Below, in pieces: positions 1,232 through 64,000 of a stretch of 64,000 nt of DNA (the stretch's first letter is position 1; every line of letters starts with the position of its first letter). This stretch comes from Ginglymostoma cirratum (lineage: Eukaryota), in assembly GCA_024137785.1 (NCBI GenBank), contig JAHRHZ010000021.1, positions 15,454,097 to 15,518,096 on the forward strand. The letters are read 5' to 3'. Below the pieces are notes generated by a model. The model was given only the letters and a program-made list of their open reading frames with translations. It ran no database searches and was not told the DNA's origin. A program made the translations under genes and the position numbers.

Positions 1232-1749
1232 AACCTTGAAACTCAGTCTCTTCCATAACTACAATAATCAAATCCTGGTCATGTTTCAAGAAGCATGAAG
1301 GCTGATGAGAGGTTGCAGAAGGGATTATCAGACCATAAAGGGGTTTGAAGAATTTTCCTAAAAAATTAAAATGAGAGTTTTAATGTTGTTCTCTTTCAAA
1401 AAGGTGGTTGAAGGGAGATTCCACAGGATTAAGGTCTAATTTAGCTGAGGTGCACAAAACATTGCTGCATCATACAAGGATGAGAGAGGACAGTTTAAAA
1501 TTTCAGAAAGATGTAGGGAGATGGTGAGAATTCTTTATGTACACCAAATTGGATGGATACAGGAATACAGCAAGAGGACACTGACCAGAGTGCTCTATGG
1601 AAAGCCAGCAATCTAGTTGAGACAAGTAGCTGTTTTGTGTGCTGAAATAATGAATAACTTCAGATCCAAAGTTTCATCACATTGTTATGTCCTGTTAAAC
1701 AGTAGTAGTAATAGTAGTTTAGTGAGTGCCAATGACTGCTTGAGAATTT

Positions 1750-2070
1750 TTATTTTCATCCATTCATGAGGTGTGGGTATTACTGGCTAGTCCAGCATTT
1801 ATTGCCCATCTCCAGAGGTCAGTTAAGAGTTAATCACATTGCTGAGGGTCTAGTATCACATGTAGGCCAGACTGGGTAAGGACATCAGATTCTTGCCTAA
1901 AGGACATTAGGGAGCCTGATGGATTTTTATGACAACCAGCAGTGGTCACAAGGCTAACTCGTTCCAAATTTTCACTGAATTCACATTGCACCATCTGCCA
2001 TGGTGGAATTTAAACCTACGTCCCCAGAAATATTAGCCTCGGGTTCTGGATTACCAGTCAAGTGATTCAT
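1750..2070 (-). mobile_element. Shark tRNA-derived SINE with LINE-like 3' tail
   Basis: Shares blocks (ccagcatttattgcccatc, taggccagac..gtaagga, ggacattag, ccatggtgg) with copies at 14465-14850 and 16560-16710. Confidence 0.7.
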
Positions 2071-2954
2071 AAAATTATGTATTCATGAAATATTAGATTC
2101 AAGTGATACAGAAAAATTGGGAACAGAAACTATAGGAATATACCACAAAGCTATAACTTTCAACTGATTTCACAGATAGAAGCATATCACATTGCTGCAA
2201 TCCAGCTATGTGTGGGCTTCCGACGCTAATCAAAATAATACAAGCTTACCTTTGAGGAATTTTCCTTCCAAACTGCCAGTCGCAAATCTTTCTCAGTTGA
2301 AGCAGTCTAGCACAGTCCAAAATTGTGCAACAAAATGGATCAGCATTGAAACACTTCATTGACAACTCAACCATATTCCAGAATTCAAATGTTCTTGATC
2401 CACTTTTACAGCTGATAAAAAGGTAAGTGAGGTGCTTGGGGAGCAGGCAGTCGGTTGACAAAAGGCTGAGTGCTTAGGTAAAAAGGGTGGAGAGGCTTTG
2501 GGCTCCAGAGATATGGTCAGGGTGATCATAGGAGAAATCCATGGGATGGGTGTGGGAGTCAGCGATGTGTCAGAAGGTGTCACTTAAATTGTCCAATTAG
2601 TGGGTTTTTAATTCTTCTTGTTTTTCATGGATAACTACCAAGCAAAGGCTGTTAGAAGCCTCCAATTCTAACACACTTGAGGACTTTGCAAAGGGCTCCA
2701 AACACTGACTAACTGCCTACATTAGACATCTCAAATTCCTGGGCAATTTTCACTGTCAGGAGTTTTGCATGATCCCCACGTTCAATTCCAATCTACGTTG
2801 CAGCAACCACCACCTTCTTATCAGAAGTTTTACGTCACCGTCTGCAATGTGAAAAATAGAAATTTTCACTTAAGAACTACCAATTATGACTGTACCAAGT
2901 ACAGCCTACCCTATCCTGGGATTTTATAACTCACCCACATTTGACTTCACATCA

Positions 2955-3720
2955 GAAGACAGGGTAGATAGAGATTGTTTCCTCCTTGTGGGAACTTCAA
3001 GGACCAGAGGAAGAATTTCAGAGTGAGGAGTCTCCCTTTCCTGGGATGGCTGGACTGATGTATGAAGAGAGACTGGATTGGTTACCAACGATATTCACTG
3101 GCATTTGGATAACATGTGGGGAGAGTATTAAAATCCTATAAAATTATAACAAAACTAGACACAGTAAACAAGGATGTGCCTGATAACCAGGGAGCCCAGA
3201 ACCAGGGATTAAGTTTAAGGATACGGCGTAGGCTAGTTAGGACTGAGATGAGATGAAATTTCTTTGCCTAGACAGTGGTGAGCCTGTGAAATTCACTGCC
3301 ACAAAACAGAAGAGGCCAAAACATTGACAGTTCAATACAGTTCTTAAGGCTAAAAGGGATCAAAACAGGAAACAGAGGACTGAGATAGATGATCAGCCAT
3401 GATTTCACTGAACGGCACAGCAAACTTGAAATGCCAAAAAGACTACTCCTGAGCCTAGTTTGTGTTAAGGCAGAAACGAGGAATTTTTTGAGGGAGAAGC
3501 ATCTGTGAAATTCTTTGTAGTAAAGAGCAGTCGAGGCCGAAGGACTAATTACATACAAGGCCGAGGTAGGCAGATTTCTAATCATTAAGGGAATCAAGGG
3601 TTGAAGATAAAGCAGGAAAGCGGAGTTGAGGCTATCAGATCAGCCGTTCTCCATTGAACAGTGGAGCGCACTTAACAGGCTGAATGGCCAACTCCTACTT
3701 CTATATTGTACAGTTTTATA
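2955..3720 (+). mobile_element. Two nested CR1 LINE 3' fragments
   Basis: Two sets of CR1 3' motifs (gtgaattc/gtgaaattc..gcc..aaag; gatcagccatgat..gaa.ggc.gagca). Confidence 0.75.
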
Positions 3721-3924
3721 TTCCAACAGGTGCAAACCTACAACTTAGAGCCTTATTTTGGAAATAAAGCAGCAATGCACTGAAAAATTGATCTAACAAA
3801 TTATCAACTCAATTATTACTGCTCCATTGTATTTTGAACTCAAACAGACCAGAATTTAAAATTCTAGTTGTTGAACCAGGTTGAAGAATGAGAGTGTCAT
3901 TTGAAAAGCGAATTACACAACATT

Positions 3925-4480
3925 TGGGACAGTTCAGCAGTAACATTCTTGACCAAAATCAGAAGATTGTAAGTCCAAAGCACTGAGCATACAAATCAGG
4001 GTGTCACTTCAGTGCTGAGGAAGCTCACTGTGTGCCTTTTGCGTGAACTTTTTAAAACAGTGAGCCTATACGCACATAAAACACTCATTTTACTAATCTC
4101 CTGCACTAGTTAAGAAGATTGCACTTTCAAGTTGCATCCCAGAACAGCACAAAATTTAACCGGACACAGAACTGAAAGGGTGCTGCATCGGCAGTCGTTT
4201 TCTTTGAGATAAACTATTAAACCAAGAGTTTGTCTGTAACCCCAGATGGACGTGAAAGATCCCTCAGCTCTACTGTAAAAAACCAAATGACTGCTCGCTG
4301 GTGCTCAAGCCAATACTTATTCAACATCACAAAAATAGAATCTGGTCTTTTCCAAATTTTCTTTGAGACACATGTTTAATTTTGCTGCATATTTTCTTCA
4401 GTGGTAACTTCAAATTTGCTATTTGCTTTAACAGACACCTTGATATTGTGAAAGATGCAATGTAAATCCAATTTTTTGCT
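3925..4480 (+). mobile_element. DeuSINE (SacSINE1-like), degenerate
   Basis: tRNA-like head (tcagaagattgtaagtcca) plus Deu-domain-like gagata..ttaaacc..gtctg..ggacgtgaaagatcc and a tail ending aaatcca..ttttt. Confidence 0.6.
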
Positions 4481-4632
4481 TTCATGTGATGACCTGATCA
4501 ACATTTATACCGCAATCTAACAGTATACCTATAAGCTTATGTCACCAGCATCAGGACTATGCTGGATAAAAATGGGTTATGCTTGTCTACATTATATACA
4601 TTAGTTGTTTGCTGTGGAAATGCGTAAGTGTC

Positions 4633-4905
4633 TTTATTGTGTGGAAAAAACTAACATTTTCATCAATTTGTAATAACGTTTATCAAAAATTTTCCAGATA
4701 AGCTGTGCATCAATGCATCATTTCTACACTACTTTGTGTTAATTTCAGAAATGTGCGTGCAATTTACAGGCTACTTTGCCCACAGGATGTAATGAGAACA
4801 CAAAAAAGACAGACTTCTTTTTTTGATAAAGCATGTATTGAAAATAATCAAATATAAACACATTGTATAAGAATACTTACAAAGTATTTAGTACAAAAGT
4901 TTATT
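4633..4905 (-). terminator. Candidate polyadenylation signals of ZFC3H1
   Basis: Minus-strand AATAAA at 4900-4905 and 4633-4638. AATACA at 4834-4839 is followed by a GU/U-rich tract (gtctgtcttttttgtgttctc). Which site is used cannot be determined from sequence. Confidence 0.55.
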
Positions 4906-5678
4906 TGTCAAATACTTGTCACTCTTCAAGTTTTCCTTAAACCATAAAATAAATAAATTCTCACAAAACAAGATTGCACATAAATTGACCAGCCTCAAGA
5001 ACTGATGCACTGGCATGCATAAATTTTAGTGTTCCAACTTTTCCACTGCAGTAGATTTTGTCTTCAAGTATGTTAATACATAAAACAAAGAGTCTCTGCA
5101 GCAGCAAGTCCACCACACTGAACATGAGAAAGGGTATTATGCAACCCCTCCTGGAATCTTCACCTGGCAAAGCAGTCACTTTGGACTTTCTACCAAGGCA
5201 ATAACACTTTTTTTCTGTGAAACCTGCTGCTTTTGAACCTGTAATAAAAAATCTCAAACAGAAGTTTAACAAGGGAGGGGGGAGAAAAGAAAACAAAAGA
5301 ATTGAAACTGCCTTATTCATGTGCATAGAACTGCACTAAAATTTAGCCAATTTTACATGCAGCAGTTTGTATAAAGACTAAAGACACACGACATTTAAAA
5401 AATAATTCATCATTCTGAGGTACCATACTTACGGACGTGATGTTACGACAATCTGACAGGGCCCAGAGGCCAAGTAGGAGTTCATTGATCTTGTTTTGGG
5501 TCACTGGTTCGTAAGCTCCAAGATTTTTGACCACGTAGTGAAGAAAGCCGTTGGGAAGGACACGTGCATCTCCACAGATTATTATCTGCGTTTGCAGATA
5601 TCAGCTACAGACCAGCCAAGTCTTGACGAGCCACCTCTTTTACGTAGGGGGACCAGGAAACATTTTTACGCTCTGTTA

Positions 5679-61907: not shown

Positions 61908-61978
61908 CTTGAAAGGAGATTCTGTCAAAAATCCTTTACTCTTTGAACTAGAATGGTCTGGATCTTTATTTTCAGACT
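61908..61978 (-). CDS. ZFC3H1: ZFC3H1 exon 3 (71 nt, phase 1/0)
   Basis: ttcttccag|AGTCTG ... TTCAAG|gtaaat; ESENKDPDHSSSKSKGFLTESPFK; required to bridge the phases of exons 2 and 4. Confidence 0.88.
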
Positions 61979-62052
61979 CTGGAAGAAACCGTAACCAAGT
62001 TAGTAACAAATGGTAGTGTATCCATTATTTTCACAAATCATATTCCACATAC

Positions 62053-62439
62053 CTGGTTTATTTGTTGAAGGCTCCAATGGTTCTGGTTTTTGGCTGTCTT
62101 GTTCCATCTGAGCTGGTGCACGTAGCTTCTGTCTTAAAGGTTTCAGTTCAAATGCCTGAAAAGCTTTCACCTGAGGTTTTTCAGTGGATAGCTGTAAATT
62201 GTTCTTTTCAATACTGTTGGTTTCTACATTAACATTCCCAGACACAACATTACCATCCTCCTCCAGCAAGTTTTCTCCCTTGGTAGTCTGAGACATTTTT
62301 TCTTCTCTATTAAGACATTCCAGTTCCAGCTGAATCTCTTTATATTTCCTAAGAAGATCTTCAAATGTTTCATCCATATCATCATCATTTCTGCAATACT
62401 GAGCTGGTCTTCTTGATGGGAACCGTCCAAAGAATTTTG
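62053..62439 (-). CDS. ZFC3H1: ZFC3H1 exon 2 (387 nt, phase 1/1)
   Basis: ctcag|CAAAATTC ... CCAG|gtatgt; KFFGRFPSRR...DETFEDLLRKYKEIQLELEC...KAFQAFELKPLRQKL. The exact acceptor is slightly uncertain because exon 1 is absent. Confidence 0.9.
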
Positions 62440-62462
62440 CTGAGTTAAATGTGTAAAGGAAA
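62440..62462 (-). promoter_or_regulatory. U12-type (minor spliceosome)-like branch site and 3' splice site of intron 1
   Basis: Minus strand TTTCCTTTACACATTTAACTCAG|: a TTCCTTRAC-like motif with its A about 14 nt from the 3' end of the intron. The donor is outside the window. Confidence 0.5.
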
Positions 62463-64000
62463 CTTAACATTTTCAATACCTAATAACTAAATACTCGAAC
62501 TTCTGTTATACAAAATGTAAGTGTCAAATCTTGCACAAATATTATAAGCAAAGGATATATTAAAGTTTCTCAGTACATCCTCACTTGGTTTAGTCGAACT
62601 CTACAGTCATTCAGGGGACACATATCAAGAAACTTGACATAAAAAGCTACTGAGGAATGGCACAATAATGAGAGTAGTCTGTTCATGCTAAAGGCTGAAC
62701 AGACGAGACAAAAGGAAATAAGCAGTTGCTCATACTGACCATAGCCCAAGTTAAAATACTTAGCCAACCAGAAAAAAAATCACAAGGTCGACAACTACAA
62801 TGTCTTCATAAGCAAAAAGAATTTCCTCTGTAATAACTTAAGTGAACCTCAAACTTTTTAGTTTGTAGACTTTTCAAATGGAATTAATGGACCTCCAATC
62901 TAAATGCTCTACAACACTAACCTTATTTCAAAAATATACTTTAGTCATAAGAAATCTTTAAAGAAGGTCACTAAAGCAGTCTGTACAGTCACTGCACATA
63001 AAAAACGGCTTTGGGTTTTTTCCAATTATGCAGGATACCATTTGCATACATCTGTGGCACCTGGAGGGTCCAATAACTGATACAAAAGTGCTGTGCATAA
63101 AAGAGATTTTATGTTTGTTTGTTACACAAGCATTTGTTTAACAATTTAAGAACTATCTATCTGATGTTGACAGTGATGTGACATACCAGACAGAGATAAA
63201 GGAATAGTCTGACTCCATTAACATTCTAATGTAAGCTGAATGAACTGCTGGCAATAGGAATAAACGCTGCATGTTAATATCAAACATATTTGACCAGTTC
63301 ACAGTTGACATTCAGGTAAAATCAGTACCAACAGTAGCAACACCATCATTGGAATATTAAATCGGTTCATGGTAATTCCCAGAAGTTTCCTTCCCTCCAA
63401 ATTGGGAGTCCTCACCTGAATGGGATATTCTTAAATATGTTGCACACTAGTACAAACTGAGCTTAATTTCTCAGTTATTTAAAATAAATCACGTAATGAC
63501 AATTTATTATTTATGATTTACATTACAGTATAATAGTACGAATAATGAAAAGTTCAACTGAGCTCTGTGATTATATTACTGTCTTGGTTTGATTCTAATA
63601 AACAGAATATGCTGGAAAAACTTCAACAGACCAGTTATTGTAGTCTAACTTGTTCACAATGTAAATTCACCTGAATTTCATAACAGCAGTTGGCTTCCAC
63701 CTATCTTGCTCCCATGCCAAAAGTAAAGACCGTCTGCCTGAAACCAGAGTAGCCCAGATACCTAACACGACAAAGGGGGCAGAATATTTGGAATCTCTCT
63801 AGGAGCATCAGATATGTAACTCATGAACACCCTGTGTAGGACTGAAGTTCTTTTGAGTTCATACAAAGTGCAGAGCTTGCCTAATTCTTATTCCTCGCCT
63901 TTCACCATTATGTTTTTCCTTCTCTTGCATATAAGAGATTATTTCATGAATAAAGATCACAACAGACTGGAGTTTGAAAGCCTACAAGTTTTCCTAGAAT

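What the first reader, a model, noticed from the sequence alone, without database searches (positions are those of the whole stretch)
62440..62620. Best lead: 42-nt micro-exon candidate bounded by U12-like signals on both sides, just upstream of exon 2
Seen (minus): TCCCCTGAATGACTGTAG| (weak U12-branch-like motif at 62609-62618), then AGTTCGACTAAACCAAGTGAGGATGTACTGAGAAACTTTAAT (62600-62559), then a perfect U11-binding donor |ATATCCTTT (62558-62550) only about 110 nt from the U12-like branch/acceptor of exon 2. There are two readings, both inference. (a) With a phase-1 exon 1 it reads xAG TTC GAC TAA, a poison exon. (b) The AT donor could pair with the AC 4 nt upstream of the AG (ttaac|TCAG, 62444) to form an AT-AC intron, joining the open frame SSTKPSEDVLRNFN directly to SAKFFGR in the ZFC3H1 frame, which needs a phase-0 upstream partner. 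An internal U2-like donor (CAA|gtgagg) is also present. This could be a minor-spliceosome-sensing switch on the PAXT adaptor, analogous to U11/U12-dependent regulation of SNRNP48, RNPC3 or SRSF10. Caveat: a single 9-mer can occur by chance in 64 kb; the positional clustering is the argument.
Basis: partly seen in the sequence, partly recalled or inferred. Interest (0 to 1): 0.7.

Follow-up and report, generated by a model that had tools for sequence, protein, structure and literature searches.

The report
Nested AT-AC intron in shark ZFC3H1
Inside the first, minor-class intron of a shark ZFC3H1 gene sits a second 115-base minor intron that one transcript assembly shows cut out exactly; this removes the signal needed to splice the big intron and would leave a dead-end message, more likely a tolerated splicing leak than a control switch.

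Summary
ZFC3H1 intron 1 is an ordinary U12-type GT-AG intron (4,469 nt, phase 1), known as such in human and mouse. Inside its 3' end, ATATCCTTT (62558) and the AC at 62445-62444 bound a 115-nt AT-AC intron that shares the branch site. One transcript-derived contig set (run X1) carries exactly this joint; the canonical joint has depth 138 there. It is 1 of 6 RNA-like runs laid, and the other five did not cover the donor. The contig runs unbroken through the proposed micro-exon acceptor, so the upstream part is retained intron. The predicted RNA keeps 4,350 nt, a stop 22 codons in, and no usable branch site. Donor, branch, AC and AG are unchanged in one close relative (P=0.52 for the donor by chance). 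The 42-nt frame is broken there. The AC is absent in human. About 2-3 such donors per genome are expected by chance. Verdict: a real but thinly sampled U12-within-U12 splice, probably a leak; a regulatory switch on PAXT is not excluded. The scan's earlier notes held nothing on it.

The parts
62053..62439 (-). ZFC3H1 exon 2 (canonical, 387 nt)
   Evidence: tblastn of P0044; joints L001 536-5006 and 75-150; exon 1 to 62439 gives RKPKFFGR as in chondrichthyan proteins
62440..64000 (-). 3' part of intron 1, U12-type GT-AG, 4,469 nt; its donor GTATCCTTTT lies outside the window at G000:C21:15521004 (66908 in extended window numbers), exon 1 CDS at C21:15521485-15521005
   Evidence: canonical joint in X1, X21, X3, X20; human and mouse ortholog listed as minor intron
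62440..62441 (-). AG acceptor of the outer GT-AG intron, 14 nt after the branch A
62444..62445 (-). AC acceptor of the inner intron, 10 nt after the branch A, 4 nt upstream of the AG end
   Evidence: joint in X1; unchanged in organism B
62453..62461 (-). Shared U12 branch site TTCCTTTAC (8 of 9 consensus; branch A inferred at 62454)
   Evidence: no difference in organism B over L001 537-575; sharing is inferred from position
62444..62558 (-). Inner 115-nt AT-AC U12-type intron
   Evidence: X1 contig joint L001 540-656, skips 115, ends AT..AC on minus, both=0
62550..62558 (-). Inner U11-type donor ATATCCTTT
   Evidence: complementary to the 5' end of the genome's own U11 at +4 (G-U) to +9; unchanged in organism B
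62559..64000 (-). Retained intron-1 sequence upstream of the inner donor (4,350 nt in all, continuing outside the window)
   Evidence: X1 contigs cover L001 656-1650 and 1636-4960 at depth 8.2 and 9.1; contigs do not prove one molecule
62559..62600 (-).
   Evidence: no joint at its 5' end; weak acceptor; 46 nt in organism B

Best explanation
A second minor-spliceosome donor (ATATCCTTT) inside the U12-type GT-AG intron 1 of ZFC3H1 is joined to an AC four bases upstream of the normal AG, excising a 115-nt AT-AC intron, and this likely yields a dead-end RNA as a tolerated, lineage-limited leak rather than a selected switch. Mechanism: U11/U12 can pair the one branch site either with the exon-1 GT donor 4.4 kb away (ends at AG, productive, dominant) or with the AT donor 104 nt away (ends at AC). 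Shown: both joints exist in contigs of one run. Inferred: both use the same branch A; the AT/AC and GT/AG pairing follows the known preference for matched termini. Inferred: the inner splice deletes the branch site, so the remaining 4,350 nt can no longer be removed by the minor spliceosome at that AG. Predicted: the RNA carries a stop at codon 182, 4,285 nt upstream of the new joint, plus an unused donor, and would be held in the nucleus and degraded or removed by NMD.
For: Joint L001 540-656 with AT..AC ends, both=0, on a 1,029-nt contig with 0 mismatches, at the position predicted beforehand from sequence. Canonical joint depth 138.2 against contig depth 8.18 in the same run. No second copy lacking the 115 nt in G000 (1 match) and no such joint in 2 of 2 DNA runs of organism B. 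The five bases before the donor equal the five before the final C of the inner intron at the same 115-nt offset, but the contig carries base 62559, not 62444, which a homology-driven template switch would have kept. Best branch match left for the AG after the inner splice is 4 of 9. Stop position. Matched termini preferred, optimum branch-to-3' distance 11-13 nt (PMC3584512, passages). GT-AG beats AT-AC in engineered competition (PMC8280824, passages). For 'leak': 2.1-2.7 such donors expected per 700 introns; no AC at this place in human; flanks diverge at background rate (23 substitutions, 4 indels in 380 nt).
Against: One contig, one run: 1 of 6 RNA-like runs; X1 is not on record as RNA (its canonical joint implies it). 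Splice against template switch rests on one base. Contig depth is a mean over 1,029 nt and does not count junction reads; assembly cleaning may have dropped the unspliced path, so the ratio is unknown. Contigs do not show that the 4.35 kb and the joint lie on one molecule. Against 'leak': donor and 15 adjoining bases (L001 644-667), branch, AC and AG have no change in organism B (P=0.17 for 24 nt, 0.52 for 9 nt); no X1 contig covers the 115 nt while the rest of the intron is covered at depth 8-9, and the index share 0.81 matches the 0.80 expected for that gap, which hints that most intron-holding RNA there is AT-AC spliced; the human intron also has frequent internal events.
Confidence: 0.58

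Rival explanations
1. Selected switch: the inner AT-AC splice is a conserved kill step that sets ZFC3H1/PAXT level by the relative activity of A-type against G-type minor splicing, its product being a PAXT substrate (feedback).
For: Signals unchanged in organism B; gap over the 115 nt in X1; A-type introns depend on CENATAC far more than G-type, 92% against 24% (PMC8280824); human intron 1 has high basal retention (PSI 0.30 in control, 0.60 on CENATAC depletion) and internal AD/CE/AA events, and a CAT9 event at 0.24 in marrow and 0.29 in testis; PAXT controls its own mRNAs (PMC13391367, passages); ZFC3H1 retains RNAs with unused 5' splice sites (PMC9074902, abstract; shown for U1-type sites).
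Against: Conservation tested only in a relative with about 94% intron identity; no conserved block around the donor; AC absent in human and apparently in a skate-like read-through, P0059, whose peptide has K where the window has N (inference); human internal events have no coordinates in the rows seen and rise when minor splicing fails, as cryptic U2 sites do.
Confidence: 0.2
2. Poison micro-exon: exon-1 GT donor to the AG at 62601, 42-nt exon, AT donor to AC or AG; the X1 contig is the half-spliced intermediate.
For: Downstream joint is real; stop in the third full codon; organism B keeps a YAG and, by hand reading, an in-frame stop; NMD and contig cleaning would hide the product.
Against: No joint at 62601 in 8 of 8 runs laid (only X1 informative); contig passes through unbroken; branch match 6 of 9 is matched by 67 of 307 AGs; 3 substitutions and 2 indels in L001 668-720.
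Confidence: 0.1
3. Artefact: the joint comes from reverse-transcriptase template switching, a mis-assembly or a private deletion; the motif is a silent chance match.
For: Single contig; 5-nt direct repeat at exactly the 115-nt offset; motif frequency compatible with chance; not seen in 5 other RNA-like runs (none covered it).
Against: The diagnostic base is the splice form (both=0, 0 mismatches); ends fall on a perfect U11 site and an AC 10 nt after a branch site; a genomic deletion would remove the branch site of an intron that is spliced at depth 138 in the same run.
Confidence: 0.09
4. Coding micro-exon or internal first exon giving an N-terminally different ZFC3H1.
For: Open frame through the AT-AC joint; by hand reading, one insertion in organism B makes an in-frame ATG five codons before the donor.
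Against: Exon 1 is phase 1, joined frames stop; no fetched protein up to P0071 holds the peptide; two 2-nt insertions in organism B; intron coverage in X1 continues to within about 45 nt of the exon-1 donor.
Confidence: 0.03

Closest known systems
U12/U12 alternative splicing in human cells: one event of ten using both an alternative U12 donor and an alternative U12 acceptor (Cologne et al. 2019, PMC6800510, passages)
   Same: Two U12 donors and two U12 acceptors in one intron; half of such events give PTC forms
   Different: Gene and subtypes of that event were not identified here; whether it mixes GT-AG with AT-AC on one branch site is unknown
Engineered P120 minigene with tandem A-type and G-type minor donors (de Wolf et al. 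2021, PMC8280824, passages)
   Same: Direct AT against GT competition, G-type dominant
   Different: Artificial, tandem sites; here natural, donors 4.35 kb apart, the AT site next to the branch
SRSF10 intron 2/exon 3 (Meinke et al. 2020, PMC7244321, passages) and MAPK8/9 (PMC8329584)
   Same: A second minor donor lies inside a minor intron, rarely used in SRSF10; competition decides productive against unproductive RNA
   Different: There the second donor closes a conserved exon with a U2 acceptor and the contest is U2 against U12; here no upstream acceptor is seen and both routes are U12
U2/U12 twintrons: prospero, NCBP2, PRMT1, CENATAC (PMC3564746 part 1 of 3; PMC8329584 parts 2-3 of 6)
   Same: Nested introns competing for one stretch; in PRMT1 and CENATAC the U12 route is the unproductive one
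   Different: Defined by two different spliceosomes and deep conservation; neither shown here
USSE of SNRNP48 and RNPC3 (PMC8329584)
   Same: U11-type site in an intron linked to unproductive RNA
   Different: USSE is a tandem, is not used as a donor and activates an upstream U2 acceptor; this site is single and is spliced
ZFC3H1 intron 1 of human and mouse (PMC6717393, PMC8280824, PMC6800510 supplement rows)
   Same: Same U12 GT-AG intron, same position and phase
   Different: Human has GT where the window has the AC; no inner AT-AC intron in the rows seen

Membership tests
U12-type intron (outer, GT-AG) | RTATCCTT donor pairing with U11 | tested here: met
   GTATCCTTTT at 66908; own U11 5' end
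U12-type intron (outer, GT-AG) | U12 branch site about 10-20 nt from the 3' end; spliced in RNA | tested here: met
   8 of 9 at 14 nt; joint in X1 and X21, exon-1 loose end in X3 and X20
U12-type intron (inner, AT-AC) | ATATCCTT donor, branch site, AC end at the right distance | tested here: met
   9 of 9 donor, branch 8 of 9 at 10 nt (lower edge of the 11-13 optimum)
U12-type intron (inner, AT-AC) | Excised in transcripts | tested here: inconclusive
   exact joint in one contig of 1 of 6 RNA-like runs; the other five did not cover the donor
U12-type intron (inner, AT-AC) | Dependence on U11/U12/U6atac | not testable with these tools
   needs knock-down or suppressor snRNA
U2/U12 twintron | Alternative introns of two spliceosome types | tested here: not met
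   both observed joints have U12 donors
USSE (SNRNP48/RNPC3) | Tandem U11 sites not used as donors | tested here: not met
   one site only; other RTATCC in intron 1 lie 480 nt or more away and are weaker; site is spliced
USSE (SNRNP48/RNPC3) | Activates an upstream U2 acceptor; stretch highly conserved | tested here: not met
   no joint upstream; 3 substitutions and 2 indels in 53 nt in organism B
Conserved poison exon | Both boundaries used in RNA | tested here: inconclusive
   3' boundary seen, 5' boundary not; contigs drop rare forms
Conserved poison exon | Rises on NMD inhibition | not testable with these tools
   no such data set
Conserved poison exon | Deep sequence conservation | tested here: inconclusive
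   only one close relative readable; no intron DNA of distant vertebrates found

The most novel reading that the evidence does not exclude
A natural GT-AG/AT-AC pair on one branch site acts as a self-destruct switch: the short AT-AC splice deletes the branch site of ZFC3H1's minor intron, traps the transcript as a PAXT substrate, and so reads the ratio of A-type to G-type minor splicing (CENATAC-dependent) into the level of the nuclear decay adaptor; conserved across cartilaginous fishes and perhaps mirrored by the internal events of the human intron.
Probability: 0.2. Interest if true: 0.72.

Novelty: new variant of a known kind. Interest (0 to 1): 0.43.

Why it matters
Alternative splicing within the minor spliceosome is rare, and subtype competition (AT-AC against GT-AG) was seen here in print only as an engineered reporter. 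A natural locus where one branch site serves both subtypes, each with its own matched acceptor 4 nt apart, would be a ready in-vivo reporter of A-type against G-type efficiency and of how termini are matched, even if it is a leak. If selected, it would tie minor-spliceosome state to PAXT dosage. If neutral, it shows how cryptic U11 sites near a branch site turn apparent 'intron retention' into an irreversible product that retention counts would misread.

Tried and rejected
No RNA holder on record was listed by the run search; X22 laid 0 reads (no test); X21 gave 36 reads, none over L001 571-950; X2 had no contig over exon 2 or L001 541-710; X3 and X20 had none over the donor. These blanks are not evidence. 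Two metagenome scans for vertebrate intron DNA found nothing. Protein searches and cluster look-ups gave no protein with the micro-exon peptide among P0001-P0071 (regex); among P0072-P0157 the N-termini printed were canonical or plain intron read-through (proteins without the anchor motif were not printed). None of 5 unannotated human ZFC3H1 junctions in PMC8091538 lies in intron 1. Paper searches listed no paper on an inner donor in ZFC3H1; the library lacks most subscription papers; Dietrich 2005 is not held; file 4 of PMC6800510, file 13 of PMC8280824 and bioRxiv supplements were not seen and may bear on novelty. Earlier scan notes: nothing relevant. Rejected: recursive rescue at the same AG (branch 4 of 9); U2 donor inside the 42 nt (mutated in organism B); second genomic copy.

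Full report
Setting. The window is G000:C21:15454097-15518096. The exon at 62439-62053 (minus) encodes part of ZFC3H1; the closest named protein is from Stegostoma tigrinum, 98% over 98% of the query, and P0044 maps over the window in 31 tblastn pieces. Exon 1 lies outside the window: ATG at 67389 in extended numbers, 481 coding bases, then GTATCCTTTT at 66908. Exon 1 joined to 62439 reads RKPKFFGR, as in the shark proteins fetched, with one residue varying in skates and an electric ray. Intron 1 is thus a 4,469-nt phase-1 U12-type GT-AG intron with a branch site at 62461-62453 (8 of 9 of the recalled consensus). The human and mouse introns are listed as minor (PMC6717393 supplement rows), so this part is known. 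The genome has a U11 gene whose 5' end pairs with both donors, the exon-1 donor by one base more.

Observation. Every motif is at the stated place. The inner donor alone is within chance for the window (1 found, 1.52 expected). Within 200 nt of a given acceptor its chance is 0.3-0.4%, or 2.1-2.7 cases per 700 introns. The upstream branch-like motif and acceptor are ordinary: 67 of 307 AGs in the intron score as well, and 66 of 147 YAGs are as pyrimidine-rich.

RNA evidence. Of 24 listed runs 8 were laid: six RNA or RNA-like (X21, X22, X1, X2, X3, X20) and two DNA (X18, X14). X1, not on record as RNA but carrying the canonical joint at depth 138.2, has a contig with the joint L001 540-656, that is 62443-62559, skipping 115 nt with AT..AC ends on the minus strand, no ambiguous bases, 34 bases on the exon side. 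The same contig continues unbroken to L001 1650 with no mismatch, and a second one covers 1636-4960, at depth 8.18 and 9.08. No X1 contig covers the 115 nt; the index share of 0.81 fits the 0.80 expected for that gap. No joint uses 62601. The other five RNA-like runs did not cover the donor: X22 0 reads, X21 36 reads with 2 canonical, X2 nothing over 541-710, X3 only two depth-2 pieces upstream, X20 exon only. So the joint stands in 1 of 6, with 1 informative. Limits: depth is a contig mean, cleaning can drop a path, and contigs do not prove one molecule.

Artefact check. Five bases before the donor repeat the five bases before the last intron base at exactly 115 nt offset. A homology-driven switch would keep base 62444; the contig has base 62559. 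The splice reading therefore holds, on one diagnostic base. G000 has a single match to the region and two DNA runs of organism B show no such joint.

Conservation. Organism B, a close relative, differs by 23 substitutions and 4 indels in 380 intron bases and by none in 107 exon bases. Branch, AC, AG (537-575) and donor with flank (644-667) are unchanged; chance of that is 0.08, 0.17 for the 24 nt and 0.52 for the 9-mer. A 24-nt indel lies 4 nt behind the donor 9-mer. The 42-nt stretch has two 2-nt insertions and two substitutions, one removing the inner GT donor. By hand reading it keeps a YAG and a phase-1 stop, and gains an ATG in frame with exon 2 through the AT-AC joint. The human acceptor has GT in place of the AC (PMC8280824 supplement row); a skate-like read-through peptide also implies no AC (P0059, inference). 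Intron DNA of distant vertebrates could not be obtained.

Mechanism. Shown: two joints into exon 2, four bases apart. Inferred: one branch A serves both, at 14 nt from the AG and 10 nt from the AC, with matched termini as reviews describe (PMC3584512 passages); the G-type route dominates as in an engineered contest (PMC8280824 passages). Inferred: after the inner splice the best branch match for the AG is 4 of 9, so the step is irreversible for the minor spliceosome. Predicted: the RNA retains 4,350 nt, stops at codon 182, 4,285 nt before the joint, and keeps an unused donor; nuclear retention and PAXT decay or NMD would follow. ZFC3H1 retains RNAs with unused 5' splice sites (PMC9074902 abstract) and PAXT acts on its own mRNAs (PMC13391367 passages), which makes feedback plausible but untested. 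In human the same intron is much retained (PSI 0.30 control, 0.60 after CENATAC depletion; 0.29 against 0.57 with ZRSR2 mutation) with internal AD, CE and AA events (the meaning of these labels is recalled), and a CAT9 event at 0.24 in marrow and 0.29 in testis. No coordinates were given, so homology to the shark site is open.

Comparison. It works like a twintron in which the inner route is unproductive (PRMT1, CENATAC) but is not one, as both routes are U12. It is not a USSE. SRSF10 has a rarely used second minor donor inside its minor intron. [quoted passage not shown] Nine paper searches listed nothing on an inner donor in ZFC3H1. Papers seen: passages of PMC12179342, PMC6717393, PMC8091538, PMC8280824, PMC3584512, PMC1874599 (nothing useful), PMC7244321, PMC13391367, PMC1557818, PMC6800510; parts 2-3 of 6 of PMC8329584; part 1 of 3 of PMC3564746; abstract of PMC9074902; supplement rows of PMC6717393, PMC8034651, PMC6800510, PMC8091538, PMC8280824.

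Verdict. The event is a U12-within-U12 AT-AC splice (about 0.85 real), most likely a leak that yields dead-end RNA (0.58), possibly a selected switch (0.20). Interest 0.43.

Noticed in passing
L001, extended window numbers 66005 and 66730 (intron 1, outside the window): Two further AGs in intron 1 have 8-of-9 U12 branch matches 9 and 13 nt upstream; possible cryptic U12 acceptors for the exon-1 donor. No joint to them.
   Followed up: partly
window 62571 region, organism B: A 2-nt insertion appears, by hand reading, to create an ATG five codons before the inner donor, in frame with exon 2 through the AT-AC joint; the window has CTG there.
   Followed up: no
window 8816 and 3224, minus: RTATCCTT matches in near-identical contexts, probably copies of one repeat; 8816 lies in a late ZFC3H1 intron.
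   Followed up: no
window 61978-62052 (intron 2): Intron 2 is only 74 nt, U2-type, spliced in 3 reads of X21; mammals have a well-known 345-366 aa short ZFC3H1 isoform group that may end near here.
   Followed up: no
window 63508: One AATAAA in the retained part of intron 1, a possible intronic polyadenylation signal.
   Followed up: no
human chr12:71657302-71663012 (paper supplements): The human ZFC3H1 minor intron is G-type yet responds strongly to CENATAC depletion and has unexplained internal splicing events.
   Followed up: partly
L001 about 1020-1053, 2556-2900 and 3802-3841: Short repeat-like pieces in intron 1 draw many foreign reads and contigs.
   Followed up: no
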